Shown here: one piece after another, positions 28,725 to 45,201 of the stretch
How positions within the stretch are numbered: position 1 is the first letter of the stretch
Layout: each line of letters opens with the position of its first letter
Virus record (IMG/VR): IMGVR_UViG_3300002143_000172
Coordinates: 1-64,000 of that record
DNA from: a virus
Length of the DNA: 64,000 nt
Reading direction: 5' to 3' (one strand)
The notes under the pieces: generated by a model
Seen by the model: the letters and a program-made list of their open reading frames with translations, nothing else
What the model was told of the DNA's origin: nothing
Database searches by the model: none
Position numbers and translations under genes: made by a program

Positions 28725-28799
28725 TGGCCGGCCTTGCAGGAGTCGAACCCGCGACTTTTGTTTCGAAGACAAAGATGATATCCATTTCACCAAAGACCG
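28725..28799 (-). tRNA. tRNA-Arg(UCG)
   Basis: cloverleaf, loop CU-UCG-AA, encoded CCA. Confidence 0.9.
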
Positions 28800-28833
28800 A
28801 TAATTGATTATACACTAATAACATATTTAAGTC

Positions 28834-28862
28834 AAAAAAATAGGACTCCGAAGAGTCCTATT
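28834..28862 (-). terminator. intrinsic terminator
   Basis: AUAGGACUC-UUCG-GAGUCCUAU plus U-tract. Confidence 0.9.
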
Positions 28863-28863
28863 A

Positions 28864-29096
28864 ACAGGATGATCGTGCCAATTTGTTTAGTATTCTGGTC
28901 TGGCCAATTATAGCACCCAGACCCTATCAACATTCATGTTGACTATTACATGTTTTTCTGTATGTAAATCATACCCGGTGCTTTGCCGGTCTATCAGTTA
29001 TATTAGCGTCTATTGCTAGAAAGTGTTGCCACTTGCCTTACGGGCCGCCGTCTACTGCATTAAGCGTTAGGTTTAAATTGCTGTATTCATCCAAAA
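28864..29096 (-). ncRNA. CAGCAA-family structured RNA copy 1 (about 230 nt)
   Basis: GGAUGA/UCAUCC closing stem, CAGCAA, three consecutive GNRA hairpins plus further helices. Confidence 0.75.
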
Positions 29097-29099
29097 ATA

Positions 29100-29258
29100 A
29101 CAGGCTAGTTGTCTACTTTTGTTTTTTATCGAGGCAAATATCGAAAACCCTCTATCTAATCCTACTTCATTGCTAACCTTCAAAGCCAATTAAGGCTCCA
29201 GTTAGTAACATAAGATTAGCATTCCATGTAATTATGGATTGCTGAACCTAGCCTAAAA
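29100..29258 (-). ncRNA. CAGCAA-family structured RNA copy 2
   Basis: AGGCUAG/CUAGCCU stem, GUUCAGCAA, internal helices. Confidence 0.75.
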
Positions 29259-29264
29259 AACTAT

Positions 29265-30656
29265 TTATAAAACACTGTAGCGTTCGGTGTCTACAGTTGC
29301 CATCATGATACCATATGGAGTCATGTCAGTGCCCGATAGGACACCCTTCATAACTGCTGGACTGAACCCAGACACCAGAGCAGTTCCCTTCTTATCAAAC
29401 TTAACAGGGACATTGTCCTTAGAGTTTAAGTTCCAGAAAACTACATTTGGTACTTCGTATCCTGCTTCCTTGTACTTACGCTTGATCATCTGCATAGCAG
29501 AGTCGTCGTGCTTGACGCAAGCGTCAAATTGCATGTCGGACAAGATCAGCAAAGTCTTTGGCATGTCACTTGCGTTCACACCGCCCTTGACTGCAATGCG
29601 TAGAATTTCTTCAAACGCCGCATGTAGGTTAGTGTTCATGCCCCAATCGCTAGAGTTCATTTGTGCCATCTTTTCAGATAGCGAACCCTTAACGACCTGT
29701 GCCTTTGGCTTAGCACTGAAAGTCAAGAATGTATCCTTGAATACACCTGTGTTCTTATCAGCACAGTACAGACCTAACGACAAGGCAACATCGATGCACA
29801 TCAAGTTAGCGTTTCCGCCAACTGCACAGCTCATCGAACCGCTAACATCAACCAACGGCATAACGCTAGCATCACCAATGTAGTTTGGTAGTGATGCCCA
29901 TTGAGCATCTGCTACCACGCTATCGCCACCATGACGCAAGGTCTTGATGACATCGTATGGGTAAACAGCCGAAGCATTTACCTTGTCTGTACCCGCAGTC
30001 AACCGAGCCTTGTAGGCTTCGTATGACGCCTTGGCATTACGACCAAAAGCCTTGTTGTAACGAGCAGAAGCCAATGAAGGCAACTTGCCAAACTCGATGC
30101 CATCCCAGTCTTGGGCACACATCTTTGTTTCTACAACATTGGTAAGAGCCACTAGACTCTTACGGTACTGCTTTGGAGTCATCCCGTAAAACTTACGGAT
30201 CTCCACTGCGATCGGCCCTTGACGAGGTATCCACTTGGCACAAAGACCGTTGCGTTCACGCAAAGCATCACCGATTAAAGTATATGCCATGTGCTTGAAC
30301 TTTTCGGTCTTGAATACCAACAGATCATCCCATCGACCAAATTCACTTACGAAAGGCAACACTGATTCCAGAATCTCTGGGTGAAGCATTTCTAGGTGAA
30401 CAAGGAGATCACGAAACAACTGGCGCTCACCAGCACCGCCACGAACATCGCGTGTCCATAAAGCAATTTTCATTGCGATATTGCTATCTTCCTGGAAAGC
30501 CTTTTCGAAGTCTGCGGTTACAGACTTACCACGGCTTGCACCAATCTTGTAGAATAGATCTACAAGGGCATTGCCCGAATGAGCCTTTGCCTTCATACCG
30601 TTTTCGGTACGAGCTACCTCTGGGGTAGACTTAACTGCTTCTGCGAATGTAGTCAT
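29265..30656 (-). CDS. DUF2828 / TROVE-like protein with C-terminal vWA domain
   Basis: RDVRGGAGER, GRWDDL, AKWIPR, DVSGSM (MIDAS), SDMQFD, FWNL, VSGFSP. Confidence 0.85.
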   Translation of the reverse strand: MTTFAEAVKSTPEVARTENGMKAKAHSGNALVDLFYKIGASRGKSVTADFEKAFQEDSNIAMKIALWTRDVRGGAGERQLFRDLLVHLEMLHPEILESVLPFVSEFGRWDDLLVFKTEKFKHMAYTLIGDALRERNGLCAKWIPRQGPIAVEIRKFYGMTPKQYRKSLVALTNVVETKMCAQDWDGIEFGKLPSLASARYNKAFGRNAKASYEAYKARLTAGTDKVNASAVYPYDVIKTLRHGGDSVVADAQWASLPNYIGDASVMPLVDVSGSMSCAVGGNANLMCIDVALSLGLYCADKNTGVFKDTFLTFSAKPKAQVVKGSLSEKMAQMNSSDWGMNTNLHAAFEEILRIAVKGGVNASDMPKTLLILSDMQFDACVKHDDSAMQMIKRKYKEAGYEVPNVVFWNLNSKDNVPVKFDKKGTALVSGFSPAVMKGVLSGTDMTPYGIMMATVDTERYSVL

Positions 30657-30679
30657 CTCGTTCTCCTTTCGTTAAAATG

Positions 30680-30740
30680 ACAGGTTGCTTATTTTTCAAT
30701 TACAAGTTGAATTTTAAAATTTGCTGAACGCAACCTAAAA
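30680..30740 (-). ncRNA. CAGCAA-family RNA copy 3 with anticodon-arm mimic (UGU)
   Basis: AGGUUGC/GCAACCU stem; UUCAA-CUUGUAA-UUGAA. Confidence 0.75.
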
Positions 30741-30765
30741 ACTTATTTTCTTAACTTAAACATTT

Positions 30766-30794
30766 ATTATAGACGAAATAGACATCGTTGTCAA
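30766..30794 (-). promoter_or_regulatory. sigma70-type promoter for copy 3, DUF2828, copy 2, copy 1
   Basis: TTGACA-17 nt-TATAAT. Confidence 0.85.
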
Positions 30795-30812
30795 CATCTA
30801 TTTCATCTATTT

Positions 30813-31424
30813 TTACATCGTAGGACCGTTACCGCTTCTAAAACCTACACTACCACCTTCTTCTTCGATGCGTTTGATAACATCCTCAAACAAGATAGGA
30901 GCAAAGTCTGGAAGTTGTTCCACGCAAACGCAGTGGTATCTTACATCAATCTCATCGCTGTACAAGATCTCTCCTGTCCTTGCGTCAACCCCCCTGGCCT
31001 TACGCACACGATTTGCGTGAGTATGACCGTGGATGTTAACCCCAAAGCGACCAAGACTATCTGAGTGCAACGGAATGTGACTCAAAATCATCCCATTCAT
31101 AACATGATAGGCCCTAAGCTCTCTAAAGTATTGACGGTATTCGTCATCTCTGAAGATGTCGTGGTTACCGCGGATCAATACCTTATCACCATTTAACCTA
31201 GCCAATGTTGATATAGCCTTTCGGTTAATAACAACATCGCCCAAATGGTAAATTTTATCAGTGGGCTTAACTCTTTCGTTCCAAGCCTTGATCATGGCTT
31301 CGTCCATATCCTCTGGACTATCCCACGGTCTCAATTTGGTAACACCATCTTTACGAGTGAATTTACACACGCCCAGGTGTCCAAAATGAGTATCGCTGAC
31401 TAAAAATACACTAGGCATATTCAA
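30813..31424 (-). CDS. calcineurin-like metallophosphoesterase
   Basis: SDTHFGH, HLGD, GNHD, HGHTH. Confidence 0.9.
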   Translation of the reverse strand: MNMPSVFLVSDTHFGHLGVCKFTRKDGVTKLRPWDSPEDMDEAMIKAWNERVKPTDKIYHLGDVVINRKAISTLARLNGDKVLIRGNHDIFRDDEYRQYFRELRAYHVMNGMILSHIPLHSDSLGRFGVNIHGHTHANRVRKARGVDARTGEILYSDEIDVRYHCVCVEQLPDFAPILFEDVIKRIEEEGGSVGFRSGNGPTM

Positions 31425-31648
31425 CTCCTTTCTTTTTTAACGCGGCCAATGCGGCTCGCTTTGTTCCAATCGTAAGCAACGCCATCTGGGCACTTGCCGT
31501 CCTTGATACTGTCAACTCCAAATATACCTACCATTTCAAAGTCTGCACCTTTAATGGTCACAAACTCGTTCATTGACTTAGCAACATTCATTGCCTCGGC
31601 AAGTGTAAGAACTTTGAAGATTTCTTCTTTTCCTATTACTTTATACAT
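31421..31648 (-). CDS. hypothetical protein
   Basis: 75 aa ORF after promoter. Confidence 0.7.
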   Translation of the reverse strand: MYKVIGKEEIFKVLTLAEAMNVAKSMNEFVTIKGADFEMVGIFGVDSIKDGKCPDGVAYDWNKASRIGRVKKERS

Positions 31649-31654: not shown

Positions 31655-31683
31655 ATTATAACATGATTTTACCACTTTGTCAA
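31655..31683 (-). promoter_or_regulatory. sigma70-type promoter
   Basis: TTGACA-17 nt-TATAAT. Confidence 0.85.
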
Positions 31684-32240
31684 TCATTATCTTCTAACTT
31701 TCTACGCTCGCGCCTTGCTTGGGCAAGCATAAAAACCTTTTCATTATCATTGGTCCAATCTACTGCGTGTTTGGGTACAATTAACCCAGAATCCAATGTC
31801 ACACCATTAATGGTGTGAGGCTCATTCTCATCATAAGTCCACCCTAGGTGCTTCATCATACGATGCTTGACACATAGGTTAGGACTGCGGAACACTTCTG
31901 TGTCATCAAAGCCCATCATAACGCCAACCTCGCATACTGCTCCACTACGGCACACACCTGCATGACAATGAACAACGACATTCATACGATTGTCTAATGC
32001 ATGTTGTAGCAAACGGACAAGCTCTGCGGCCTGTTCATTACTACATCGCATTGCTTCTTCCAAACACTCATCGTGTTCTTCAATATCTAAAAATTGGAAT
32101 TGATGGACTTCTTTGAATTGGTGCTTGGGAGTTGGAAAATCTCCGGGCGGATCACAAATTTGGATCAGCATGGAGTTAGGACCACAATCGTGGTGCCGAC
32201 CTTGCTTAATATCAGATAACGCTACATTTTCAATCCACAT
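31680..32240 (-). CDS. Cys-based (PTP/DSP-like) phosphatase
   Basis: HCHAGVCRS (CX5R); start MWIEN after AGGAG. Confidence 0.85.
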   Translation of the reverse strand: MWIENVALSDIKQGRHHDCGPNSMLIQICDPPGDFPTPKHQFKEVHQFQFLDIEEHDECLEEAMRCSNEQAAELVRLLQHALDNRMNVVVHCHAGVCRSGAVCEVGVMMGFDDTEVFRSPNLCVKHRMMKHLGWTYDENEPHTINGVTLDSGLIVPKHAVDWTNDNEKVFMLAQARRERRKLEDND

Positions 32241-32700
32241 ACCAAATCTCCTTAAATCCTTCTTCTTCAGTGGGCTCTTCCCAACTGGCAATCATACTGG
32301 CAACAACATGTTCCGGAACGATCTTTCCAGACTCCCATCGACTGGATAGTCGACGAACAAGTTCTTTATGTTCAGGTGTACGAAACACCACAGCAATATG
32401 TTCATAGTCTGGCAACATACGAAACTTCTTAGCCCGACTAGCAATCGTAGTGCTGGTTTGATCCCAAATAATATCATTGCCCATTTCTCGAATGGCTACA
32501 ACATTTGCGGCCATTAAATTAACTGCCTTGGGCATGTATTCTGTAAAAATTTCCGAATAGGTTTTCTTCAAGCGAGCGGCTTCTAATTCAACCCAATAGT
32601 CAGTCGATACGATATGACATCTCTTGGCCCATTCTTGATTGGCGATCCAGGTACTTTTGCCCGAACCAGGCACTCCGACCATCTGATAACATCTTAGCAT
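32230..32700 (-). CDS. AAA_33 / polynucleotide-kinase-like P-loop kinase
   Basis: GVPGSGKST, VSTD, WDQT. Confidence 0.85.
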   Translation of the reverse strand: MLRCYQMVGVPGSGKSTWIANQEWAKRCHIVSTDYWVELEAARLKKTYSEIFTEYMPKAVNLMAANVVAIREMGNDIIWDQTSTTIASRAKKFRMLPDYEHIAVVFRTPEHKELVRRLSSRWESGKIVPEHVVASMIASWEEPTEEEGFKEIWYVD

Positions 32701-32721: not shown

Positions 32722-32796
32722 TGGTCCCGCTAGGAGGAATCGAACCTCCATCTTAACCTTAGGAGTGTTTTATTCTATCCATTGAACTATAGCGAG
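32722..32796 (-). tRNA. tRNA-Arg(CCU), weak anticodon stem
   Basis: cloverleaf, loop CU-CCU-AA, CCA. Confidence 0.75.
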
Positions 32797-32809
32797 GGGT
32801 TAATAACAC

Positions 32810-32838
32810 ATTATAGCATGATAAATGATTTGTGTCAA
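32810..32838 (-). promoter_or_regulatory. sigma70-type promoter
   Basis: TTGACA-17 nt-TATAAT. Confidence 0.8.
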
Positions 32839-32845
32839 ATGAAAA

Positions 32846-32907
32846 ACAGGATCCGCTTTTTTCAAAGTTGAAGTTTGATTTTTTAATTTGCTGAAAGGAT
32901 CCTAAAA
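32846..32907 (-). ncRNA. CAGCAA-family RNA copy 4 with anticodon-arm mimic (UCA)
   Basis: AGGAUCC/GGAUCCU stem; UCAAA-CUUCAAC-UUUGA. Confidence 0.75.
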
Positions 32908-32908
32908 C

Positions 32909-32985
32909 TGGTTGCAGTGGCAGGATTCGAACCTGCGATTCCCGGCTTATGAGACCGGACGGATAGACCACTTCCATACACTGCG
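32909..32985 (-). tRNA. tRNA-fMet(CAU)
   Basis: CAU anticodon, C1:A72 mismatch. Confidence 0.85.
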
Positions 32986-32990
32986 ATAAT

Positions 32991-33020
32991 TGGTGGAGGA
33001 GACAGGGATCGAACCGATAT
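32991..33020 (-). pseudogene. 3' remnant of a tRNA-Ala
   Basis: CGGUUCGAUCCCUGUCUCCUCCACCA without 5' half. Confidence 0.7.
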
Positions 33021-33023
33021 CTC

Positions 33024-33536: not shown

Positions 33537-33567
33537 ACTTTATTTATCATAAAGTGCGAAATACGAA

Positions 33568-33596
33568 CGCTGTTCTATCAACTGAGCTACACCCCC
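33568..33596 (-). pseudogene. 5' remnant of a tRNA-Ala
   Basis: GGGGGUGUAGCUCAGUUGAUAGAACAGCG then HNH promoter. Confidence 0.7.
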
Positions 33597-33637
33597 ATTT
33601 ATTCTTTTCTGCTAACAATCCTACAAGGGAACAAACT

Positions 33638-33714
33638 TGGTCGGAGTACAAGGATTCGAACCTTGGACCTCCTGGTCCCAAACCAGGCGCACTACCAGGC
33701 TGTGCTACACTCCG
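33638..33714 (-). tRNA. tRNA-Pro(UGG)
   Basis: canonical cloverleaf. Confidence 0.95.
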
Positions 33715-33721
33715 AATATTC

Positions 33722-33796: not shown

Positions 33797-33801
33797 AAAT
33801 A

Positions 33802-39458: not shown

Positions 39459-39485
39459 ACTGGTTCCTTTTTTAATTTAAAACTA

Positions 39486-40130: not shown

Positions 40131-40143
40131 AACTTTATTTATA

Positions 40144-40219
40144 TGGCACCCCCGGAGAGAATCGAACTCCCATTCCTGCGTTCGTAGCACAGTGTATGAA
40201 TCCATTATACGACAGGGGT
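40144..40219 (-). tRNA. tRNA-Arg(ACG)
   Basis: cloverleaf. Confidence 0.9.
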
Positions 40220-40231
40220 ATAAATAATTTT

Positions 40232-41437
40232 ATGAAAAACTGGGAAAATGTTAAAAAACTGCACATAGAAATAAGTTCTCAATGTAACGCTGTATGTCCT
40301 ATGTGTACTCGGTATCCAACCGCTAGTTACTTTGAGCACCCGCATATACAGAAAGACTGGATGTGGACTGTAGACACAGTAAAACAACGACTACCTAAAG
40401 AAGATTTAATAGGTATAACTTCATACCTTATCAATGGCACCTTTGGAGATTTTATTATGAACTCCGAAGCAATAGAAATAATACAGTATCTAAATGAATG
40501 TTCACCCGATGCTAGTCTTTATATCAATACCAACGGTTCTGCTAGAAACGCAAGTTGGTGGAAAGAACTTGCAAAGATTCCTAATGTAGTAGTAAATTTT
40601 GCAATCGACGGATTAGAAGATACTCATTCACTTTACAGGAGAAACACTAGCTGGTCTAAGATTATTGACAATGCTAAAACATTTATAAATTCGGGCGGTC
40701 ATGCAGAATGGACAATGATTATATTTGAGCATAATAAGCATCAAGTTGATGCTTGCTTTAATCTCAGCACAACTATTGGATTTAAATCATTTACCAGCCG
40801 AAATAGCGACCGAATCAATACTGATGTTCTTGATAAAAATGGCCTTAGTAAATACGGAATAAAATCTGCCGATCCTACCATTACCAGTTATCGATCCTAC
40901 CATCAATTACAGTGGAAAGAAACTATATTAAAGAAAGGTCAGTTTTACGCAAAGCAAACATACCAAACCGGCGCATTGCCTAGTATAGACTCATGCTCGA
41001 GTATTTCGGAAAGTTCGGTATACATAGGATCAAATTGGTCCGTAATGCCGTGTTGTTTCTTAGGAAACATTACGATGGGTAGGCAGACTGATCATAGGTG
41101 GGCAAATTTCTTAGATGCACTCACTAACGCAGGATTTTCCTTAACCGACTTTGATGCAACAAGTACCAAAACAGTTCGTCAAGTATTTGAGCAAGGGTTT
41201 GACTGGGTATACAATCGCATATTAACCGACAATGCGTTAGTTGCTTGTTCAACAAATTGTCATCCTGTGGACAGTGCATTTCAGAGAAGTATGGCAAGTC
41301 GTCAACATGAAACCCTTAAAAATATGGTGCCGCCCCCAGGGATCGAACCTGGTTCCTCGGTGCTTCAAACCGGTGCTATGACCACATCAGCTAAAGCGGC
41401 ATTGGTACCAGCGGAGGGTATCGAACCCTCTCACTGA
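40232..41437 (+). CDS. radical SAM / SPASM protein
   Basis: CNAVCPMC, NTNGS, VMPCC; 3' end overlaps tRNA-Phe antisense. Confidence 0.9.
   Translation: MKNWENVKKLHIEISSQCNAVCPMCTRYPTASYFEHPHIQKDWMWTVDTVKQRLPKEDLIGITSYLINGTFGDFIMNSEAIEIIQYLNECSPDASLYINTNGSARNASWWKELAKIPNVVVNFAIDGLEDTHSLYRRNTSWSKIIDNAKTFINSGGHAEWTMIIFEHNKHQVDACFNLSTTIGFKSFTSRNSDRINTDVLDKNGLSKYGIKSADPTITSYRSYHQLQWKETILKKGQFYAKQTYQTGALPSIDSCSSISESSVYIGSNWSVMPCCFLGNITMGRQTDHRWANFLDALTNAGFSLTDFDATSTKTVRQVFEQGFDWVYNRILTDNALVACSTNCHPVDSAFQRSMASRQHETLKNMVPPPGIEPGSSVLQTGAMTTSAKAALVPAEGIEPSH
41325..41400 (-). tRNA. tRNA-Phe(GAA)
   Basis: cloverleaf. Confidence 0.9.
41403..41430 (-). pseudogene. 3' tRNA remnant (T-arm plus GGUACCA)
   Basis: GAGGG-UUCGAUA-CCCUC then CGCUGGUACCA. 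Confidence 0.65.
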
Positions 41438-41447
41438 TGTTATCTAT

Positions 41448-41524
41448 TGGTACCTCCGGCGGGAGTCGAACCCCCAACCACCTGCTTCTAAGGCAAGCCG
41501 CACTACCAATTAGCGTACGAAGGC
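41448..41524 (-). tRNA. tRNA with Leu(UAG) anticodon, short variable loop
   Basis: 77-nt class I cloverleaf. Confidence 0.85.
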
Positions 41525-41529
41525 ATATA

Positions 41530-41606
41530 TGGTACCCCGTGTCTGATTCGAACAGACATCCAACTCCTTTTGAGAGAATTCGCACTACCAATTAGCGTAA
41601 CGGGGC
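41530..41606 (-). tRNA. tRNA with Leu(CAA) anticodon, short variable loop
   Basis: 77-nt class I cloverleaf, same D-arm as neighbour. Confidence 0.85.
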
Positions 41607-41616
41607 ATAAAAACTT

Positions 41617-41692
41617 TGGGGTGCTCTATGAGGATCGAACTCATACTACCGGGGTCACAGACCAGTGTGCAGGCCACTACACTAAGAACACC
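41617..41692 (-). tRNA. tRNA-His(GUG)
   Basis: G-1:C73. Confidence 0.9.
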
Positions 41693-41698
41693 ATTGTT

Positions 41699-41775
41699 TG
41701 GAGCACAGGGTGGGACTCGAACCCACGACTTTACGGATTTGCAATCCGCTACATTGGCCGCTCTGTCACCTGTGC
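41699..41775 (-). tRNA. tRNA-Cys(GCA)
   Basis: cloverleaf, U73. Confidence 0.9.
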
Positions 41776-41782
41776 ATATAAT

Positions 41783-41856
41783 TGGAGCGGGTAGCGAGAA
41801 TCGAACTCGCGATTAAACTTCGGCAAAGTTTTAGGTTACCATTACATCATACCCGC
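41783..41856 (-). tRNA. tRNA-Gly(GCC)
   Basis: cloverleaf, U73. Confidence 0.9.
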
Positions 41857-41864
41857 ATTGTTTG

Positions 41865-42464
41865 TTAGCCAAATAATATTTTTTTGGCATCTTTAAAATA
41901 TGTATTACTTTGAATATTTTCCATTATTCTTAGAGTTAATACAACTCTAAGTGAGTTTGATCGACTATTGTCAAAATCATGAAAAATATCTGTGTTAAAC
42001 AATATACATTCATTTGATTTTGCGACCATACTTTTTATCGGTGTATGTTTTGTTTTATCGAAACCAGCACATTCTCTTGAAGTTTTTTTCTGCAAATTGT
42101 CTATTAGATACTCTTTTAAATCTTCATCACTATACCAATTAGTAACACACGCTTCGTCTAAAATTTGAACGGTATAGTTGATACTAAATCGATCAGACAT
42201 TCCGTCCTTGTGTGCCCTGTAATATCCACCGGGCTTTGTCATAAACAAACTAACACGATGTGGCCTTAATGGCATTTGCTTTGCCATTGGTAGTAATGAA
42301 AGAAGATGATTCGCTTGATCTTTTGGAAAAGGGTAATGAATAAAAGTCTCATTATCCTCGATTGAAGGCATATTCTTTTTACAATAGTCAACGATCTTAT
42401 CTAGCCCGTCGTGGGTAAATCTAATATAGTACGGACTGCAATCTTCGATTATTGTATAGGTCAT
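41865..42464 (-). CDS. 2OG-Fe(II) oxygenase-like protein
   Basis: AHKDG, FNTDIFHDFDN...R. Confidence 0.7.
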   Translation of the reverse strand: MTYTIIEDCSPYYIRFTHDGLDKIVDYCKKNMPSIEDNETFIHYPFPKDQANHLLSLLPMAKQMPLRPHRVSLFMTKPGGYYRAHKDGMSDRFSINYTVQILDEACVTNWYSDEDLKEYLIDNLQKKTSRECAGFDKTKHTPIKSMVAKSNECILFNTDIFHDFDNSRSNSLRVVLTLRIMENIQSNTYFKDAKKILFG

Positions 42465-42487
42465 ATAACTATTTACAATCTAAAATT

Positions 42488-42579
42488 TGGCGGAAGACGG
42501 AGGAGTCGAACCCCATCCCATTTCTGAGAACCCAGTTTTCAAGGCTGGTCGGCGCACCAACGCACCTGCATCATCTTCC
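42488..42579 (-). tRNA. tRNA-Ser(UGA), 8/4 fold
   Basis: 8-bp acceptor, 4-bp T-stem, G73, long V-arm. Confidence 0.8.
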
Positions 42580-42585
42580 ATAACT

Positions 42586-42659
42586 TGGTCCTCTCGTATG
42601 GAATCGAACCATCATCTACCGGTTATCAGCCGATTGCTCTACCATTGAGCTACAAGAGG
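42586..42659 (-). tRNA. tRNA-Ile(GAU)
   Basis: cloverleaf. Confidence 0.9.
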
Positions 42660-42666
42660 AAATAAA

Positions 42667-42730
42667 ACAGGATGCATTTTTGGCTTTTTTTCAAGAAAAG
42701 ATTTTTAAATTTGCTGGAAGCATCCTAAAA
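42667..42730 (-). ncRNA. CAGCAA-family RNA copy 5 with anticodon-arm mimic (UGA)
   Basis: AGGAUGC/GCAUCCU stem; CUUUU-CUUGAAA-AAAAG. Confidence 0.75.
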
Positions 42731-42732
42731 CT

Positions 42733-42807
42733 TGGCGGTCTGTGGGGGAATCGAACCCCCGTAAGTGGATAGACAATCCACAGTAATAACCTCTATACGA
42801 ACAGACC
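42733..42807 (-). tRNA. tRNA-Asp(GUC)
   Basis: cloverleaf, unusual U37. Confidence 0.9.
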
Positions 42808-42812
42808 TAAAC

Positions 42813-42887
42813 TGGTACTGCGTACGGGAATCGAACCCGTCTCTTTGGCTTGAAGGGCCAAGGACCTACCCAGAAGTCCAACGCAGT
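42813..42887 (-). tRNA. tRNA-Glu(UUC)
   Basis: cloverleaf, unusual C33. Confidence 0.8.
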
Positions 42888-42894
42888 GTAAAAT

Positions 42895-42970
42895 TGGTCT
42901 CGCATGAAGGACTCGAACCTTCGAAATCCTGGCCCCAAACCAGGTGGCATAGCCGCTAACCGAATGCGAG
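42895..42970 (-). tRNA. tRNA-Pro(UGG)
   Basis: cloverleaf. Confidence 0.9.
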
Positions 42971-42977
42971 ATAAACT

Positions 42978-43052
42978 TGGCGTACCGGGAGGGATTTGAA
43001 CCCCCACTAGCAGTTTTGGAGACTGTCGTGCTGCCGTTAACACTACCGATAC
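42978..43052 (-). tRNA. tRNA-Trp(CCA)
   Basis: cloverleaf. Confidence 0.9.
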
Positions 43053-43098
43053 ATAACTTGGTGGACTCAACAAGCTCATGCTTGCATTTGTCCTTAAT

Positions 43099-43173
43099 TG
43101 GTGGAGGCCGAGGGAATCGAACCCTTCTAGTCACGATGCTTGCAAGGCAACGCCGTAGCCCATTACTGCCCCC
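43099..43173 (-). tRNA. non-canonical tRNA-Ala(UGC), reduced D-arm
   Basis: G3:U70, A73, CU-UGC-AA loop, 8/4-like fold. Confidence 0.7.
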
Positions 43174-43178
43174 AATTG

Positions 43179-43721
43179 TTAGACGACAAGTAATTCTTGC
43201 CATCTTATAACTTTTGATTCATCATAAACATCACGCTTACCTTTTCTTGCGTTTTCGCTTGCCGGTAAGTACTGTAAATTGTCTTGATGATGTAGTCCTC
43301 CGTTTGCTAACGGAATCCTATGATCAACTTGATATCCTTCCGGAACAAATTGATAAATTTTTCTGATTAAATCTAAATCAGCATTGTCAGGTATAGCATT
43401 TCTTTTCCGTGCTCTGTAAGCATAGACATTTGCTTTATTACCTGCTCTTTTATGTTCTTCAGTCACTCTGCCTCTATGGTCCCAGTAAGCATTTCTAGCT
43501 TCTGAAATTTTAGCAGAATGTTCTTGTGTCCTAGGAGGAAGTTTTACACCCTTTCTGTTCGGCATTTTAGACTTACCAGAAACAATAGCTTTCTTAACAC
43601 CGTTAGCAATTTTTTCTTTAGTATCTGCTGTTCTAATTCTACTGTTAGCACATGCTCTTGAGCAAAATTTTCCAGATCCAAAAGATCCATTGTGTGTAGT
43701 GTTACATTTCAGACATTTCAT
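43179..43721 (-). CDS. HNH homing endonuclease
   Basis: KFCSRACAN, VDHRIPL, GGLHHQDNLQ, ENARK. Confidence 0.9.
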   Translation of the reverse strand: MKCLKCNTTHNGSFGSGKFCSRACANSRIRTADTKEKIANGVKKAIVSGKSKMPNRKGVKLPPRTQEHSAKISEARNAYWDHRGRVTEEHKRAGNKANVYAYRARKRNAIPDNADLDLIRKIYQFVPEGYQVDHRIPLANGGLHHQDNLQYLPASENARKGKRDVYDESKVIRWQELLVV

Positions 43722-43776
43722 ATTAGTTCTCCTAATTGTATTTATACAATCGTACTCAGCTAATACAAATTACATT

Positions 43777-43852
43777 TGGCTCCCCAGGTATGGATCGAAC
43801 ATACGACATCTTCGTTAACAGCGAAGCGCAACTACCTCTGTGCTACTGGGGA
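43777..43852 (-). tRNA. tRNA-Asn(GUU)
   Basis: cloverleaf. Confidence 0.9.
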
Positions 43853-43886
43853 ATAAATTAGTGAAGGATTTCACGGAATAGAAAAT

Positions 43887-43974
43887 TGGTGAAGAATGAT
43901 GGAATCGAACCACTTGCCGCCACCCCGCTTAACAATGGCCACCGGGTTACAGCCGGCGACGGGGAACATCCTCC
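43887..43974 (-). tRNA. D-armless tRNA-Tyr(GUA)
   Basis: 8-bp acceptor, GCCGG-CU-GUA-AC-CCGGU, long V-arm, 4-bp T-stem, ACCA. Confidence 0.7.
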
Positions 43975-44036
43975 AAAACACACTCTAGCAGTTTATCTTT
44001 CTGCCTCTTTGTACTATGTACTCGGAACGAATGTGT

Positions 44037-44111
44037 GTATTAAAACAAACTGACTAGCTACGCTCCGACACTAACTTCACAGGTTAGCCGTGTGCCAATT
44101 TGCTTTAATAC
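44037..44111 (-). ncRNA. hairpin RNA enclosing anticodon-arm mimic (GUG)
   Basis: 18-bp closing stem; CUAAC-CUGUGAA-GUUAG. Confidence 0.5.
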
Positions 44112-44237
44112 GAACTAATTTTTAGTCCCACAAGAGGGATTCCATCCTAGTCGCCGCCCGTTTAAGACTTGTTTTAAGTGCGTCTTCAGGACCTCGTTTC
44201 CTGGGCATTGCTGCTCTTACTTTCACACTTTGCGATT

Positions 44238-44390
44238 CTAACGACCTCCGCAGAGTATCTCTCGCTTTCTCATAGTTTCATAACTTTCTACAGCTCTTGT
44301 TAACTTGTTCTGAATAAGTTGTTTAACCTGTTCAGGAGTTAGCGTATGCTGTCGAAGCCAATCTACTTCTTTAATCTTTTTCTCTATCAT
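44238..44390 (-). CDS. 50 aa peptide (not in ORF track)
   Basis: MIEKKIKEVDWLRQHTLTPEQVK...CGGR*, AGGAGA SD. Confidence 0.6.
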   Translation of the reverse strand: MIEKKIKEVDWLRQHTLTPEQVKQLIQNKLTRAVESYETMRKREILCGGR

Positions 44391-44763
44391 TTCTCTCCTG
44401 CTCTACAAATTGTTCAAATCTTGTTGCTAGGTCATCATTTGCAGGATCTGTTGGTATGTTGTATGCGTGTATTCTGCGATGGCAGTTAGCACACACTACA
44501 ACACACTTTCTTAGTTCCCTTAAAACAGAACTTATACTTTTTGTTATTTGTCTAATAACCCCTACCTCTTTCTGGCTAGGATCACTATGATGGAAATCTA
44601 AACAAGCAGAGTCGGTCTCGCCGCATCTACTACATTTTAGTGTTCCTTTCCATTCCTGGAAAACATCAAGTAATTCTTTGTATCTGTTTTTTTGATACTC
44701 TAACAACCTTTCTTTGTTCTTTTCGTAAAACTCTTTTCTCTTCTGTTTGTGTTCTTGTTCCAT
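44371..44763 (-). CDS. HNH endonuclease
   Basis: CSRCG, LDFHH, KCVVVCANCHR. Confidence 0.85.
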   Translation of the reverse strand: MEQEHKQKRKEFYEKNKERLLEYQKNRYKELLDVFQEWKGTLKCSRCGETDSACLDFHHSDPSQKEVGVIRQITKSISSVLRELRKCVVVCANCHRRIHAYNIPTDPANDDLATRFEQFVEQERNDREKD

Positions 44764-44829
44764 AAAGTATCTCCTGATACTGTATTTATACAAAAACACA
44801 TTGTTTTTTGTAATATTTTTAAGGACTAC

Positions 44830-44866
44830 AAAAAACGAAACCCCAGGGTTTTTAATCCTGGGGTCC
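44830..44866 (-). terminator. attenuator terminator
   Basis: GACCCCAGG-loop-CCUGGGGUU followed by UCGUUUUUU. Confidence 0.85.
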
Positions 44867-44890
44867 TTGAAGTTGTTGTGTATTTTTGTG

Positions 44891-45022
44891 TTACACTACA
44901 CGCTCCCGGGACCCCTGGCAAATCTCTGGTGTACGATCATTACTTGATAGTAACCAAGAGGTGGGCATAAAGCCTGCCTGTTTGGCATCTAATCTATAAT
45001 AATGTATCGAACAGTTTTTCAT
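44891..45022 (-). CDS. putative attenuator leader peptide (43 aa, all 20 amino acids)
   Basis: MKNCSIHYYRLDAKQAGFMPTSWLLSSNDRTPEICQGSRERVV*; 3' end forms antiterminator. Confidence 0.75.
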   Translation of the reverse strand: MKNCSIHYYRLDAKQAGFMPTSWLLSSNDRTPEICQGSRERVV

Positions 45023-45080
45023 TTGCTTTCTCTTTATTTCCTAAAAATTTACAAACAGCATTATTGCTGCCTATGTGTTA

Positions 45081-45201
45081 ATTATACAGTTATTTAGCAT
45101 CGCTGTCAACCTCTTTTTATATTTTTGACAAAAAAGATTTTTAACAACTCTTCTTCCTAACCATGTGTCTATTGTATATTTATTTAGCATCGCTGTCAAC
45201 C
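45081..45201 (-). promoter_or_regulatory. tandem sigma70 promoters (direct repeat) heading the tRNA array
   Basis: TTGACA-17-TATAAT (45081-45109) and TTGACA-17-TACAAT (45171-45199), both with TAAATA in spacer. Confidence 0.9.

What the first reader, a model, noticed from the sequence alone, without database searches (positions are those of the whole stretch)
28725..45201. Integrated translation-rescue locus: sensor, complete tRNA set, end-healing enzymes and Ro-like RNP
Seen: one co-oriented 16.5-kb region holds the attenuator, about 34 tRNAs for all 20 amino acids, many structured RNAs and RpoZ. At its 3' end are a PNK-like kinase, CX5R phosphatase, metallophosphoesterase and TROVE-like protein. 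Established: kinase plus phosphoesterase activities heal broken tRNA ends (T4 Pnk paradigm), and phage tRNAs can counter tRNA-targeting defence. Inference: an inducible counter-defence system. No RNA ligase is visible in this window, and internal promoters mean the leader need not control all genes.
Basis: partly seen in the sequence, partly recalled or inferred. Interest (0 to 1): 0.8.

Follow-up and report, generated by a model that had tools for sequence, protein, structure and literature searches.

The report
Jumbo-phage tRNA island with repair genes
A large uncultivated phage keeps, side by side, a ribosome-speed sensor, a near-complete tRNA set, RNA end-healing enzymes and a Ro60-type RNA-protein particle; the parts are real and travel together in related phages, but they are separate transcription units, not one inducible operon.

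Summary
All named parts lie on the minus strand of 28.7-45.2 kb.

- **tRNAs:** 33 genes for 19 amino acids, plus tRNA-like RNAs. I found no canonical tRNA-Tyr.
- **Leader:** a 43-codon ORF feeds a terminator/antiterminator switch.
- **Other genes:** a genuine RpoZ, a Pnkp-like kinase, an HCX5R phosphatase, a metallophosphoesterase, and a DUF2828 protein whose model is a Ro60 ring with a vWA domain.
- **Small RNAs:** five covarying "CAGCAA" stem RNAs, three of them bracketing the Ro-like gene.
- **Ligase:** an Rnl5 RNA ligase lies about 120 kb away, and sits inside the enzyme cluster in two relatives.

New evidence on the leader: it is conserved in more than 100 phage contigs, always just before a co-oriented tRNA array. 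70 of 85 distinct peptides contain all 20 amino acids, against 2-3% expected by chance.

Linkage of enzymes, Ro-like gene and tRNAs recurs across diverged relatives. The Ro-like gene also sits beside tRNA arrays in FelixO1-like, KVP40 and Listeria phages.

Single-operon control is not supported. The enzymes and the Ro-like gene each have their own consensus sigma-70 promoter. Enzyme substrates are inferred, not shown.

The general concept is published (Iyer 2021). This scan has already found leader attenuators before tRNA arrays on other phage DNA. Verdict: a new variant of known kinds; interest 0.7.

The parts
45081..45199 (-). Two tandem sigma-70 promoters (45199-45171, 11 of 12 matches; 45109-45081, 12 of 12) that drive the leader
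   Evidence: a relative (L039) has three tandem copies
44891..45022 (-). Leader ORF of 43 codons plus stop. It contains all 20 amino acids and uses 35 different codons.
44909..44915 (-). GGGGUCC inside the leader ORF, 15 nt before the stop. It is the 5' arm of the antiterminator and pairs with GGACCCC at 44866-44860.
   Evidence: paired in 80 of 80 distinct homologous leaders when the terminator 3' arm is left out; the motif is conserved in two different reading frames
44829..44866 (-). Intrinsic terminator (CCCCAGG - loop - CCUGGGG followed by a U run)
43888..43975 (-). Non-canonical tRNA-like RNA with a GUA loop, an acceptor stem, a T arm and CCA. It is not a canonical tRNA-Tyr.
   Evidence: conserved with compensatory changes
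32722..43852 (-). Main tRNA array. Holds 30 ARAGORN tRNAs, tRNA-Leu(UAA) with a group I intron (36410-36708) and tRNA-Ser(UGA) (42492-42579). Interspersed are HNH endonuclease genes, accessory ORFs and three plus-strand genes.
42663..42731 (-). Short CAGCAA RNA lying exactly between tRNA-Asp and tRNA-Ile
35254..35481 (-). RNA polymerase omega subunit (RpoZ) homologue, 75 aa
   Evidence: conserved inside the arrays of 24 relatives
32842..32908 (-). Short CAGCAA RNA directly after tRNA-Met
32810..32838 (-). Perfect sigma-70 promoter for the unit tRNA-Arg(CCU) - kinase - DSP
32230..32700 (-). P-loop kinase of the AAA_33 / polynucleotide-kinase clade (156 aa)
   Evidence: (PDB 4xrp Pnkp1, 1.2e-6)
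31680..32240 (-). Cysteine phosphatase with an HCX5R(S) motif (DSP/PTP fold). Its ATG overlaps the kinase stop codon.
   Evidence: Tc-R-P 6e-7, DSPc, PTP-SAK 9.5e-5
31655..31683 (-). Perfect sigma-70 promoter for p75 - MPP
31421..31648 (-). p75, a conserved 75-aa protein of unknown fold. Its stop codon overlaps the MPP start.
30813..31424 (-). Calcineurin-like metallophosphoesterase with all five metal-binding motifs present
   Evidence: phrog_547, 1.9e-48; nearest NCBIfam: ligase-associated PdeM, below its cut-off
30766..30794 (-). Perfect sigma-70 promoter for the CAGCAA RNA plus the Ro-like gene
30676..30741 (-). Short CAGCAA RNA in the 5' leader of the Ro-like gene. It ends 19 nt before the ATG.
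   Evidence: same position in all relatives
29265..30656 (-). Ro60-fold protein (DUF2828 + DUF7788): a HEAT-repeat ring plus a vWA domain with a DxSxS MIDAS motif
   Evidence: (phrog_850, 8e-151)
28867..29253 (-). Two long CAGCAA RNAs (29253-29103 and 29092-28867) directly after the Ro-like stop codon
28839..28862 (-). Strong intrinsic terminator that closes the Ro-like unit
28725..28799 (-). tRNA-Arg(UCG), behind its own promoter (28835-28807)

Best explanation
This is the translation-support island of an uncultivated jumbo phage. The contig is 159 kb and estimated 44% complete. The island is a conserved neighbourhood of at least seven minus-strand transcription units, not one operon.

**(1) Leader switch.**
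- Two consensus promoters transcribe a 43-codon leader ORF that contains every amino acid.
- The last eight or so codons and the stop codon lie in the 5' half of a three-tier antiterminator hairpin. Its base is GGGGUCC paired with GGACCCC.
- A ribosome that runs to the stop codon melts this hairpin, so the terminator forms.
- A ribosome stalled earlier, for lack of any charged tRNA, leaves the hairpin intact, and RNA polymerase reads on into the first tRNA block.
- The architecture and its conservation are shown. The response to stalling is inferred.

**(2) tRNA supply.**
- The array supplies 33 tRNAs for 19 amino acids.
- It also holds tRNA-like RNAs and a phage RpoZ.
- HNH homing endonuclease genes lie between the tRNA genes.

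**(3) End-healing enzymes.**
- Three further units, each with a perfect sigma-70 promoter, sit at the 3' end of the island.
- One unit encodes a Pnkp-like kinase translationally coupled to a cysteine phosphatase. Another encodes p75 coupled to a metallophosphoesterase.
- Together with the Rnl5 ligase encoded elsewhere, these most likely heal and seal cleaved RNA ends. The kinase would phosphorylate 5'-OH ends and the phosphoesterases would remove 2',3'-cyclic or 3'-phosphate.
- This step is inferred.

**(4) Ro-Y particle.**
- The third unit encodes a Ro60-fold protein flanked by 'CAGCAA' RNAs that resemble the bacterial Y RNA YrlA.
- These most likely form a Ro-Y ribonucleoprotein that handles damaged or misfolded tRNA-like RNAs.
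- The fold and the RNA partnership are supported. Binding is inferred.

Together the island would keep translation running when host tRNAs are scarce or are being cut.
For: **Leader.**
- The terminator pattern finds more than 119 viral contigs. Of these, 111 carry a homologous small ORF ending 22-28 nt before the terminator.
- 70 of 85 distinct peptides contain all 20 amino acids. Random expectation is 2-3%. A column-shuffle null gives 13.1 +/- 3.2, with a maximum of 24 in 2000 shuffles.
- Cys is present in 84 of 85 peptides at a mean of 1.26 copies, spread over 17 alignment columns. This points to selection for presence rather than position.
- In 55 of 56 loci with at least 3 kb downstream, a same-strand tRNA array starts 186-1172 nt after the terminator.
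- The antiterminator forms in 80 of 80 distinct leaders.
- GGGGUCC is conserved in two different reading frames.
- The window's leader uses 35 distinct codons in 43, against 27.6 +/- 2.5 in phage genes (P = 0.002).

**Linkage.**
- All close relatives with enough flank keep kinase, DSP, p75, MPP and the Ro-like gene next to tRNAs, with the gene order shuffled. L012 and L013 carry Rnl5 inside the cluster.
- Diverged leader-bearing contigs also have these genes inside their arrays: L071, L078, L084, L092, L109, L124 and L134, with Ro-like identity of 52-59% where that gene is present.
- The 51-56% clade has the Ro-like gene embedded in arrays of 30 or more tRNAs.
- In FelixO1-like phage TP1, KVP40, Ci1 and Listeria phage LP-048 the homologue sits at or in the tRNA array. 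In LP-048 it sits with RtcB, an RNA ligase and a phosphohydrolase.

**Proteins.**
- The kinase's only PDB and NCBIfam similarities are to Pnkp-type kinases.
- The ligase matches NgrRnl at 7e-87 and scores above the TIGR02306 cut-off.
- The Ro-like model has pLDDT 93.6. Its top 13 PDB matches are all Ro60/TROVE entries (prob 1.0, TM up to 0.66), and the MIDAS residues are invariant.

**RNAs.**
- The 8-bp closing stem is 100% paired in 20 sequences, with 3 compensatory pairs.
- Copies lie just upstream and just downstream of the Ro-like gene in most loci of both clades.
- The same stem plus CAGCAAU motif flanks the homologues in LP-048 and LeBron, and the CAGCAAU motif alone lies upstream in KVP40. 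One LeBron copy matches Rfam YrlA at 39.8 bits.

**Precedent.**
- Salmonella rsr-yrlBA-rtcBA operon (PMC7790460).
- Thermus phage phiLo Ro60 with its Y-like RNAs (PMC12135203).
- Jumbo-phage tRNAs together with RNA repair genes and ROT/TROVE proteins (PMC7824862).
- Phage tRNAs that counter tRNA-targeting defence (PMC10264068, PMC11555353).
Against: - No substrate of the kinase, DSP or MPP is shown. The kinase scores far below the curated Pnkp cut-offs.
- The MPP family is generic in phages and is annotated as Ser/Thr phosphatase in T5-like phages. The DSP matches only generic PTP/DSP models.
- Characterised Rnl5 enzymes seal nicks in duplexes, not breaks in anticodon loops. Their physiological role is unknown (PMC4408790, PMC5397189).
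- The ligase is about 120 kb from the cluster in this genome.
- The 51-56% clade keeps the Ro-like gene in tRNA arrays without the enzyme cluster. One complete genome of that clade has no PF09414 ligase.
- LeBron's homologue has no tRNA within 6 kb.
- Much of the synteny comes from one lineage, so the loci are not independent.
- No canonical tRNA-Tyr was found.
- Strong constitutive-looking promoters in front of the enzymes argue against induction by damage.
Confidence: 0.55

Rival explanations
1. The genes are neighbours but are not one functional system. tRNA regions of large phages are early-expressed hot spots that collect accessory genes and homing endonucleases. On this view the kinase, DSP and MPP act on proteins or nucleotides, for example host protein dephosphorylation or nucleotide metabolism next to the dCMP deaminase. 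Only the tRNAs and their leader would concern translation.
For: - Every unit has its own consensus promoter.
- The region also holds unrelated genes: a radical SAM enzyme, a QueC-like protein, a GATase-like protein, several unassigned ORFs and four or five HNH genes.
- A dCMP deaminase lies directly beside the island.
- MPP homologues in T5-like phages are annotated as Ser/Thr phosphatases.
- The DSP matches only generic models.
- The 51-56% clade lacks the enzyme cluster.
Against: - The cluster stays together beside tRNAs while its internal order changes.
- An RNA ligase is inserted into it in L012 and L013.
- The same genes recur inside the arrays of diverged leader-bearing contigs.
- Listeria phages independently combine the Ro-like gene with RtcB and an RNA ligase next to their tRNAs.
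- The kinase's only database similarities are to polynucleotide kinases.
Confidence: 0.2
2. The function is housekeeping for the phage's own RNAs rather than counter-defence. The Ro-Y particle and the end-modifying enzymes would mature, check or degrade the phage's long tRNA precursors, intron-containing tRNA and tRNA-like RNAs. They might do so by recruiting host PNPase, as Ro60 does in Deinococcus and as shown in vitro for phage phiLo. The leader would simply match tRNA output to translational demand.
For: - The Ro-like gene is linked to tRNA arrays in many phage families whether or not healing enzymes are present.
- CAGCAA RNAs lie exactly between tRNAs, so tRNA-processing enzymes would release them.
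- Ro60 is known for quality control of misfolded small RNAs and for tethering PNPase (PMC4201824, PMC12135203).
- Strong constitutive-looking promoters fit a housekeeping role.
Against: - A 5'-kinase, two phosphoesterases and a ligase are not needed for ordinary bacterial tRNA maturation.
- The nearest cellular analogue of Ro plus Y RNAs plus end-modifying enzymes is a repair operon induced by broken tRNAs (PMC7790460).
- Phage tRNAs are experimentally tied to escape from tRNA-cleaving defences (PMC10264068, PMC11555353).
Confidence: 0.2
3. One reading: the whole 16.5 kb is one inducible counter-defence operon controlled by the leader.
For: All named parts are on one strand, downstream of the leader. 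No strong terminator was found between the leader terminator and about 38.6 kb.
Against: - Five further perfect promoters and three 11-of-12 promoters lie inside the region, including one in front of each enzyme unit and one in front of the Ro-like gene.
- Three genes on the opposite strand interrupt it.
- In relatives the enzyme cluster can lie upstream of the leader (L092).
- In the 51-56% clade, the four arrays whose start was examined (L022, L023, L033, L034) have no leader before their first tRNA.
Confidence: 0.05

Closest known systems
Leader-peptide transcription attenuators of amino-acid operons (trpL, hisL, the multivalent ilvGMEDA leader)
   Same: A short translated ORF. An antiterminator whose 5' arm lies inside the ORF. 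A mutually exclusive intrinsic terminator. Read-through is expected when the ribosome stalls.
   Different: The genes controlled are tRNA genes, not biosynthetic genes. The leader does not repeat one or a few regulatory codons. Instead it samples all 20 amino acids with unusually many different codons. I found no published description. This scan has reported codon-matched leaders before tRNA arrays in other phages.
Ro60-Y RNA particles of bacteria and phages (Deinococcus Rsr/Yrn1, Salmonella Rsr/YrlA, mycobacteriophage YrlA, Thermus phage phiLo Ro60/Yrl1-2)
   Same: A ring of HEAT repeats plus a vWA/MIDAS domain (fold match). Small RNAs encoded next to the gene, each with a 5'/3' closing stem and a conserved motif at the start of the internal loop. 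tRNA-like modules are present in the copies of relatives.
   Different: The protein belongs to Pfam DUF2828/DUF7788, not the TROVE family, and shares 10-18% identity with solved Ro60s. The RNA motif is CAGCAA(U), not GNCGAA. The window's own copies give no Rfam YrlA hit. The gene sits at or in phage tRNA arrays.
Salmonella rsr-yrlBA-rtcBA RNA repair operon (PMC7790460)
   Same: Ro60, Y RNAs and RNA-end-modifying enzymes are encoded together, with a link to broken tRNAs.
   Different: There is no RtcB, RtcA or RtcR here (RtcB is absent from the contig). The chemistry is the 5'-P/3'-OH route instead: kinase, phosphoesterases and an ATP-dependent Rnl5. No damage-sensing regulator is present. The sensor here is a translated leader in front of the tRNAs.
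T4 Pnkp with Rnl1, and bacterial Pnkp-Hen1 healing-and-sealing systems
   Same: A P-loop kinase of the Pnkp clade, a phosphoesterase (calcineurin-like, as in bacterial Pnkp) and an ATP-dependent RNA ligase in one genome.
   Different: The activities are on separate small proteins. There is an extra cysteine phosphatase and a p75 partner. The ligase is Rnl5, a duplex-nick sealer. Hen1 was not looked for. All activities are untested.
Jumbo-phage 'tRNA provisioning plus RNA repair' repertoire (Iyer et al. 2021, PMC7824862)
   Same: The same overall idea: tRNAs, RNA ligases, polynucleotide kinases, phosphoesterases (rarely calcineurin-like) and a ROT/TROVE protein in some large phages.
   Different: That survey lists gene content per genome. 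Here the parts are physically clustered. In addition, a conserved leader switch and a defined partner RNA family are identified.

Membership tests
Leader-peptide transcription attenuator | Short ORF with a ribosome-binding site, ending just upstream of an intrinsic terminator | tested here: met
   A 43-codon ORF at 45022-44891. The terminator begins 24 nt after the stop codon. The same layout holds in 111 homologous loci.
Leader-peptide transcription attenuator | Antiterminator that excludes the terminator and is melted by a ribosome finishing the ORF | tested here: met
   GGGGUCC (in the ORF) pairs with GGACCCC in 80 of 80 distinct leaders when the terminator 3' arm is absent. The hairpin contains the stop codon. 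This rests on structure prediction only.
Leader-peptide transcription attenuator | Leader codons chosen to report the supply that is being sensed | tested here: met
   All 20 amino acids are present in 70 of 85 distinct peptides, against 2-3% by chance and 13.1 of 85 under column shuffling. Codon diversity is raised (P = 0.002).
Leader-peptide transcription attenuator | Controls amino-acid biosynthesis or aminoacyl-tRNA synthetase genes | tested here: not met
   tRNA genes lie downstream in 55 of 56 loci. So it works like this family but on a different kind of target.
Leader-peptide transcription attenuator | Read-through rises when the cognate charged tRNA is scarce | not testable with these tools
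   Needs reporter or transcript assays.
Ro60 / TROVE protein | HEAT-repeat ring closed by a vWA domain with a MIDAS site | tested here: met
   Model pLDDT 93.6. The top 13 Foldseek PDB matches are all Ro60/TROVE entries (E 4.5e-9 to 1e-5, TM 0.46-0.66). D270, S272 and S274 are invariant in 101 sequences.
Ro60 / TROVE protein | Sequence membership of the Pfam TROVE family | tested here: not met
   Pfam gives only DUF7788 (5e-50) and DUF2828 (8e-25). There is no PDB sequence match at E<=1.
Ro60 / TROVE protein | Partner Y RNA encoded next to the gene, with a closing stem and a conserved internal-loop motif | tested here: met
   One RNA lies upstream and two downstream in the window. The same placement recurs in most loci of both clades. 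The stem is 100% paired with 3 compensatory pairs. The same stem and motif flank the homologues in LP-048 and LeBron, and the motif alone lies upstream in KVP40.
Ro60 / TROVE protein | At least one partner RNA carries a tRNA-like module (as in YrlA) | tested here: inconclusive
   No YrlA hit in the window. Copies in the 51-56% clade carry T-arm or whole tRNA-like modules. A LeBron copy matches Rfam YrlA at 39.8 bits, below the gathering score of 69.
Ro60 / TROVE protein | Binds Y RNA and misfolded RNAs; tethers PNPase | not testable with these tools
   Needs binding assays.
Pnkp-type RNA end-healing enzymes | P-loop polynucleotide 5'-kinase | tested here: inconclusive
   AAA_33 at 1.4e-18. A GxxGxGKS P-loop followed by an Asp (STD). 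PDB Pnkp1 at 1.2e-6. phrog_505 polynucleotide kinase at 1.7e-9. NCBIfam Pnkp models score only 17.7 and 14.5 bits, against cut-offs of 750 and 503.
Pnkp-type RNA end-healing enzymes | 2',3'-cyclic phosphodiesterase / 3'-phosphatase module | tested here: inconclusive
   The MPP has all five metallophosphoesterase motifs, and an HCX5R phosphatase is also present. Substrate is unknown. The nearest named models are PdeM (ligase-associated, below cut-off) and aq_1665.
Pnkp-type RNA end-healing enzymes | Kinase and phosphatase fused in one polypeptide | tested here: not met
   They are separate genes. Kinase and DSP overlap by start and stop codons, as do p75 and MPP.
Pnkp-type RNA end-healing enzymes | Partner RNA ligase in the same genome | tested here: met
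   Rnl5 at contig 150979-152010. It lies inside the cluster in L012 and L013.
Rnl5 RNA ligase (DraRnl/NgrRnl) | N-terminal OB module plus nucleotidyltransferase domain; curated equivalog model | tested here: met
   PF21189 at 3e-31 plus PF09414 at 8e-29. TIGR02306 scores 211 bits against a cut-off of 151. PDB 5cot at 7e-87 over the full length.
RNA polymerase omega subunit (RpoZ) | Curated equivalog model | tested here: met
   TIGR00690 scores 38.6 bits against a cut-off of 23.6. Pfam Rpb6 at 9.5e-12.
rsr-yrlBA-rtcBA repair operon | RtcB ligase (with RtcA and RtcR) encoded alongside Ro and the Y RNAs | tested here: not met
   No RtcB (PF01139) in the 159-kb contig, which is only about 44% of the genome. 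RtcA and RtcR were not searched.

The most novel reading that the evidence does not exclude
The island would be a closed-loop, phage-encoded system that keeps translation going. It would answer any tRNA-depleting defence in general, not one specific nuclease.

- An all-amino-acid leader measures ribosome speed and opens transcription of a near-complete tRNA set.
- A phage omega subunit retunes the host RNA polymerase, for example its response to ppGpp, so that these promoters stay active.
- A DUF2828-type Ro particle with its own Y-RNA family captures broken or misfolded tRNAs.
- The kinase, the two phosphoesterases and Rnl5 repair those tRNAs. The phage tmRNA frees stalled ribosomes.

As a corollary, DUF2828 proteins with CAGCAA RNAs would be a phage-wide Ro-Y system tied to tRNA arrays, from Listeria and Mycobacterium phages to KVP40.
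Probability: 0.22. Interest if true: 0.85.

Novelty: new variant of a known kind. Interest (0 to 1): 0.7.

Why it matters
Why phages carry tRNA genes has been argued for decades. The two main answers are codon supply and escape from tRNA-cutting defences.

A conserved switch that reads ribosome speed over all 20 amino acids, placed right before the tRNA genes, turns that question into a simple reporter experiment.

The island also gives a testable role and a partner RNA family to DUF2828. This is one of the commonest "RNA-binding protein" annotations in phage genomes: 711 cultured phage records and more than 6000 clusters at 50% identity.

Finally, it suggests that Ro-type particles and RNA end repair are regular companions of phage tRNA arrays. 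If that holds, it would affect how phage resistance to tRNA-targeting defences (PrrC, retrons, Septu, Schlafen-like nucleases) is understood, and how therapeutic phages are chosen.

Tried and rejected
- **Nearest cultured phage:** megablast of the whole region against cultured phages found only single tRNA matches. No close cultured relative exists.
- **Other ligases:** Rnl1 (PF09511) gave nothing, but the control genomes gave nothing either, so that search is uninformative. RtcB is absent from the contig.
- **Rfam:** no known family explains the CAGCAA RNAs. The only hits were weak matches to 'Dicty_Class_I_RNA' (27-28 bits), which I treat as chance. There is no YrlA hit in the window, even in a 500-nt search.
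- **Sequence search of solved structures:** nothing for the Ro-like protein or the DSP.
- **p75:** the model is of moderate quality (pLDDT 69.5) and gave no significant structural match. The best named hit was the phage antitoxin Dmd (E = 1.7, prob 0.13), which I do not accept.
- **Kinase homologues:** about 6500 near-identical 'predicted kinase' entries, with no informative names or fusions in the length range searched.
- **'Tyr' candidate:** I considered it a true tRNA-Tyr and rejected that. It has no D arm, and relatives that carry it also keep a canonical tRNA-Tyr.
- **Leader in the 51-56% clade:** not found. In the four arrays whose start was examined (L022, L023, L033, L034), the first tRNA directly follows a protein gene.
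- **Codon match to the phage tRNAs:** the fraction of leader codons readable by the phage tRNAs (0.88) does not differ from that of phage genes (0.87), so no codon-matching signal is seen with this nearly complete set.
- **An error corrected:** my first RpoZ query was out of frame. I corrected it.
- **Literature:** searches found no paper on leader attenuators before phage tRNA arrays, and none on DUF2828 in phages.

Full report
**What the window is.** The window is the first 64 kb of a 159-kb IMG/VR virus contig that CheckV rates 44% complete, so it comes from a jumbo phage of roughly 360 kb. No cultured phage is close: megablast finds only single tRNAs.

**The observation: tRNAs.**
- ARAGORN finds 31 tRNAs, all on the minus strand between 28725 and 43852.
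- Allowing introns adds tRNA-Leu(UAA) with a 213-nt group I intron at 36410-36708. Rfam independently calls the intron at 36480-36683.
- A permissive Rfam search adds an irregular tRNA-Ser(UGA) at 42492-42579. It also gives two tRNA-like hits, at 43890-43975 and 36327-36396 (sequences).
- The 43888-43975 RNA has a 7-bp acceptor stem, a canonical T loop, a CCA end and a hairpin whose loop reads CUGUAAC. It has no D arm.
- That RNA is conserved with compensatory changes in 13 relatives. ARAGORN never calls it, and the seven tRNA-rich loci (20 or more tRNAs) that carry it also have a canonical tRNA-Tyr.
- The count is therefore 33 tRNAs for 19 amino acids plus tRNA-like RNAs. The claim of all 20 amino acids is not met in the part of the genome that we hold.

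**The observation: proteins, all on the minus strand.**
- *Kinase, 32230-32700.* AAA_33 at 1.4e-18. Its one PDB sequence match is the kinase domain of Pnkp1 (4xrp, 1.2e-6). Its only NCBIfam hits are Pnkp models, far below their cut-offs.
- *Cysteine phosphatase, 31680-32240.* Carries an HCX5R(S) motif. Its ATG overlaps the kinase stop codon.
- *p75, 31421-31648.* Its stop codon overlaps the start of the metallophosphoesterase.
- *Metallophosphoesterase, 30813-31424.* Has all five metal-binding motifs. It matches phrog_547. Its nearest named model is the ligase-associated PdeM, below that model's cut-off.
- *DUF2828/DUF7788 protein, 29265-30656.* Matches phrog_850, 'RNA-binding protein', at 8e-151.
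- *RpoZ, 35254-35481.* Passes the curated omega-subunit model.
- Three genes on the plus strand interrupt the region, so it is not strictly co-oriented.

**Transcription layout.**
- Six perfect TTGACA-17-TATAAT promoters lie in 28-46 kb, all on the minus strand. The whole contig has 20, against 0.125 expected from shuffles.
- Perfect promoters precede the leader (45109), tRNA-Arg(CCU)-kinase-DSP (32838), p75-MPP (31683) and the Ro-like gene (30794).
- A strong terminator at 28862-28839 closes the Ro-like unit.
- The enzymes therefore do not depend on the leader.

**The leader is real and widespread.**
- After the two promoters comes a 43-codon ORF (45022-44891) and then a strong terminator (44866-44829).
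- Searching viral contigs with the terminator pattern gave at least 119 loci. Of these, 111 have a homologous ORF of 30-52 codons that ends 22-28 nt before the terminator.
- Of 85 distinct peptides, 70 contain all 20 amino acids. Random peptides of the same lengths do so in 2-3% of cases, even when drawn from the family's own composition.
- Shuffling residues within alignment columns keeps the conserved positions but gives only 13.1 +/- 3.2 peptides with all 20, and never more than 24 in 2000 trials.
- Cys is present in 84 of 85 peptides at a mean of 1.26 copies, and is supplied by 17 different columns. This is the signature of selection for presence rather than position.
- Some of the 15 exceptions come from my automatic choice of start codon or reading frame (visible in the alignment).
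- The window's ORF uses 35 different codons in 43, against 27.6 +/- 2.5 in phage genes.
- In 55 of 56 loci with at least 3 kb downstream, a same-strand tRNA array starts 186-1172 nt after the terminator. No tRNA on the opposite strand follows the terminator in any locus.

**How the leader probably works.**
- GGGGUCC lies in the ORF, usually 15 nt before the stop. It is the complement of GGACCCC, which overlaps the 5' arm of the terminator.
- GGGGUCC is conserved in two different reading frames. The neighbouring DRTPE codons show almost no synonymous change. Both facts point to constraint at the RNA level.
- If the terminator's 3' arm is left out, all 80 distinct leaders fold into a three-tier hairpin. 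Its base is this pairing, and its upper part holds the stop codon.
- A ribosome that reaches the stop must open the 5' half of the hairpin, which frees the terminator arm.
- A ribosome held up anywhere in roughly the first 30 codons leaves the antiterminator in place.
- This is the logic of trp-type attenuation, applied to tRNA genes and made sensitive to every amino acid.
- The architecture and its conservation are shown. The response itself is inferred.
- I found no paper describing this. This scan has reported codon-matched leaders before tRNA arrays in other phages. The present case is the all-amino-acid version, in front of a near-complete array.

**The Ro-like protein.**
- With an alignment of 101 diverse homologues the model has pLDDT 93.6.
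- Its best 13 PDB matches are all Ro60/TROVE entries: two entries for the Ro60 of Thermus phage phiLo, Xenopus and human Ro60, and Deinococcus Rsr. Probability is 1.0 and TM-score reaches 0.66. Isolated vWA domains follow lower in the list.
- The DxSxS MIDAS motif is invariant.
- By sequence the protein is not in the TROVE family.
- It is therefore a Ro60-fold protein of the DUF2828 family. That family is very large: 6330 clusters at 50% identity and 711 cultured phage records.

**Its partner RNAs.**
- Five RNAs in the window share a closing stem (U-AGG-NNNN ... NNNN-CCU-G) and the motif CAGCAA at the start of the internal loop.
- Three are short: 30741-30676, 32908-32842 and 42731-42663.
- Two are long: 29253-29103 and 29092-28867.
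- One short copy ends 19 nt before the Ro-like ATG. The two long ones follow the Ro-like stop codon.
- The other two short copies lie next to tRNAs. The copy at 42.7 kb sits exactly between two tRNAs, so tRNA-processing enzymes would release it.
- In 20 sequences the 8-bp stem is 100% paired and three pairs change on both sides. Stems slid by 1-3 columns pair in only 18-49% of cells.
- A copy directly upstream of the gene recurs in nearly all relatives, and a copy directly downstream in most that have the flank, including the clade at 51-56% protein identity. There the copies carry a T-arm-like or a whole tRNA-like module.
- The same stem plus (A)CAGCAAU motif flanks the homologous gene in two distant cultured phages. 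There are three copies upstream in Listeria phage LP-048 and three motif occurrences downstream in mycobacteriophage LeBron. In KVP40 only the ACAGCAAU motif lies upstream.
- One LeBron copy matches Rfam YrlA at 39.8 bits, through its tRNA-like module.
- This fits published work. Bacterial and phage Ro60 genes have adjacent Y RNAs with a 5'/3' stem, a conserved loop motif (GNCGAA) and a tRNA-like domain (PMC4201824). The phiLo Ro60 binds two such RNAs encoded upstream of its gene (PMC12135203).
- The 'Ro-like RNP' reading is thus supported by fold and by comparative genomics. Binding is untested.

**Linkage.**
- A search with the Ro-like protein gave 35 viral loci.
- In the close group (86-98% identity), every locus with enough flank has the kinase and MPP beside the Ro-like gene, and nearly all also DSP, often with p75. 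Wherever enough flank was fetched these lie next to tRNAs. The gene order varies.
- In L012 and L013 the Rnl5 ligase lies inside the cluster.
- Among the leader-bearing loci, which were found independently, L071, L078, L084, L092, L109, L124 and L134 also carry these genes within or beside the array. Ro-like identity there is 52-59%.
- In the 51-56% clade the Ro-like gene is embedded in arrays of 30 or more tRNAs but without the enzymes. One complete genome of that clade has no PF09414 ligase, and its AAA_33 kinase lies far away.
- Cultured phages give the following picture.

| Phage | Position of the DUF2828 homologue |
|---|---|
| FelixO1-like TP1 | 166 nt upstream of a 26-tRNA array |
| KVP40 | 3.4 kb downstream of the array |
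| Ci1 | between tRNA blocks |
| Listeria LP-048 | after the array, followed within 5 kb by a phosphohydrolase, RtcB and an RNA ligase |
| LeBron | no tRNA within 6 kb |

**The ligase.**
- PF09414 finds one gene in the contig, at 150979-152010.
- It has the N-terminal OB module, passes the DraRnl equivalog model, and matches NgrRnl at 7e-87.
- Characterised Rnl5 enzymes seal 3'-OH/5'-PO4 nicks in duplexes whose 3'-OH strand is RNA. Their physiological role is unknown (PMC4408790, PMC5397189).
- This fits 5'-P/3'-OH chemistry downstream of a kinase and phosphatases. It is not the anticodon-loop specialist Rnl1.

**Other conserved members of the island.**
- RpoZ recurs inside the arrays of 24 relatives at 36-62% identity.
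- A permuted tmRNA lies at contig 83521-83942.

**Weighing the readings.**
- *Best reading (0.55):* a conserved island that supports translation. The sensor plus tRNA supply is well supported. The healing-and-sealing set and the Ro-Y particle are supported by family, fold and linkage, but not by biochemistry.
- *Rival 1 (0.2):* co-location without a shared function.
- *Rival 2 (0.2):* housekeeping for the phage's own tRNA precursors rather than counter-defence.
- *Rival 3 (0.05):* the strict single-operon, inducible version. The promoter map, the plus-strand genes and relatives in which the cluster lies upstream of the leader all argue against it.

**Known or new.**
- The general idea, that large phages provision tRNAs and carry RNA repair enzymes and sometimes a ROT/TROVE protein, is published (PMC7824862).
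- Phage tRNAs are experimentally linked to escape from tRNA-targeting defences (PMC10264068, PMC11555353).
- Four things are new here. The parts are physically clustered. An all-amino-acid leader switch is conserved in more than 100 contigs. DUF2828 is assigned to the Ro60 fold with its own Y-like RNA family across distant phage groups. The DUF2828 gene recurs beside tRNA arrays.
- I class this as a new variant of known kinds.

Noticed in passing
window 36410-36708 (-), with the HNH gene at 36691-37293 (-): tRNA-Leu(UAA) is interrupted by a 213-nt group I intron, the arrangement classically known from cyanobacteria and plastids. An HNH endonuclease gene lies directly upstream.
   Followed up: partly
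window 43888-43975 (-): A conserved tRNA-like RNA with an acceptor stem, T arm, CCA end and a GUA 'anticodon' hairpin, but no D arm. A covarying CCCCG/CGGGG helix encloses the hairpin. Relatives that carry it also have a normal tRNA-Tyr. Since several defences cut tRNA-Tyr (PMC11555353, PMC13096335), it could be a resistant variant or a decoy. This is pure speculation.
   Followed up: partly
window 44371-44763, 43179-43721, 36691-37293 and 33104-33536 (all -); remnant at 33596-33555: Four HNH endonuclease genes sit between tRNA genes. The one after the leader is absent from the relative L039. A 5' half-tRNA remnant lies just upstream of the HNH gene at 33.5 kb. These look like homing-endonuclease insertions in the array.
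   Followed up: partly
window 37438-37371 (-), 38497-38401 (-), 38940-38900 (-): Further tRNA-like pieces that no tool called. One is a tRNA-Glu-like sequence with a defective T arm. Another is a roughly 97-nt RNA behind a perfect promoter, with an acceptor stem and a canonical T arm. The third is an isolated T-arm-like element.
   Followed up: no
window 35254-35481 (-): A phage-encoded RNA polymerase omega subunit is conserved inside the tRNA arrays of 24 related contigs (36-62% identity). Omega forms part of a ppGpp site on bacterial RNA polymerase, so a phage copy might alter stringent control of tRNA promoters. Untested.
   Followed up: partly
contig 83521-83942 (-), outside the window: ARAGORN calls a permuted (two-piece) tmRNA with the tag ANDAFFGEVRLAA.
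   Followed up: no
window 39328-39260 (-): A ribosome-binding site and a six-codon mini-ORF (MKRGKR), followed by a long hairpin without a U run, lie directly upstream of the two tRNA-Lys genes.
   Followed up: no
window 44238-44390 (-) and 44237-43976 (-): A 50-codon ORF lies right after the leader terminator, followed by about 260 nt of non-coding sequence. Both are partly conserved in L039 (shared stretch TAGAATCGCAA...GGAAACGAGGUCCU) and match no Rfam family.
   Followed up: no
L022:16712, L033:15458, L034:15331, L035:10310: ARAGORN calls tRNAs with a CUA anticodon (labelled 'Pyl') in the arrays of the 51-56% clade. They could be amber-suppressor tRNAs.
   Followed up: no
L034:11443-11543 (similar copies at L025:11460-11558 and L023:11459-11565): The CAGCAA RNA just downstream of the Ro-like gene in this clade encloses a complete tRNA-like domain. 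It has a D arm, a T arm and an anticodon-like loop reading UCUUAAU.
   Followed up: partly
L161:4469-5020 (Listeria phage LP-048): A ROOL RNA match (90 bits, gathering score 99.1) lies between the tRNA array and the DUF2828 gene.
   Followed up: no
window 45074-45051 (-): The 5' hairpin of the leader transcript contains GGCAGCAAU, the same motif as the Y-like RNAs. Other relatives have different hairpins at this position, so this may be chance.
   Followed up: no
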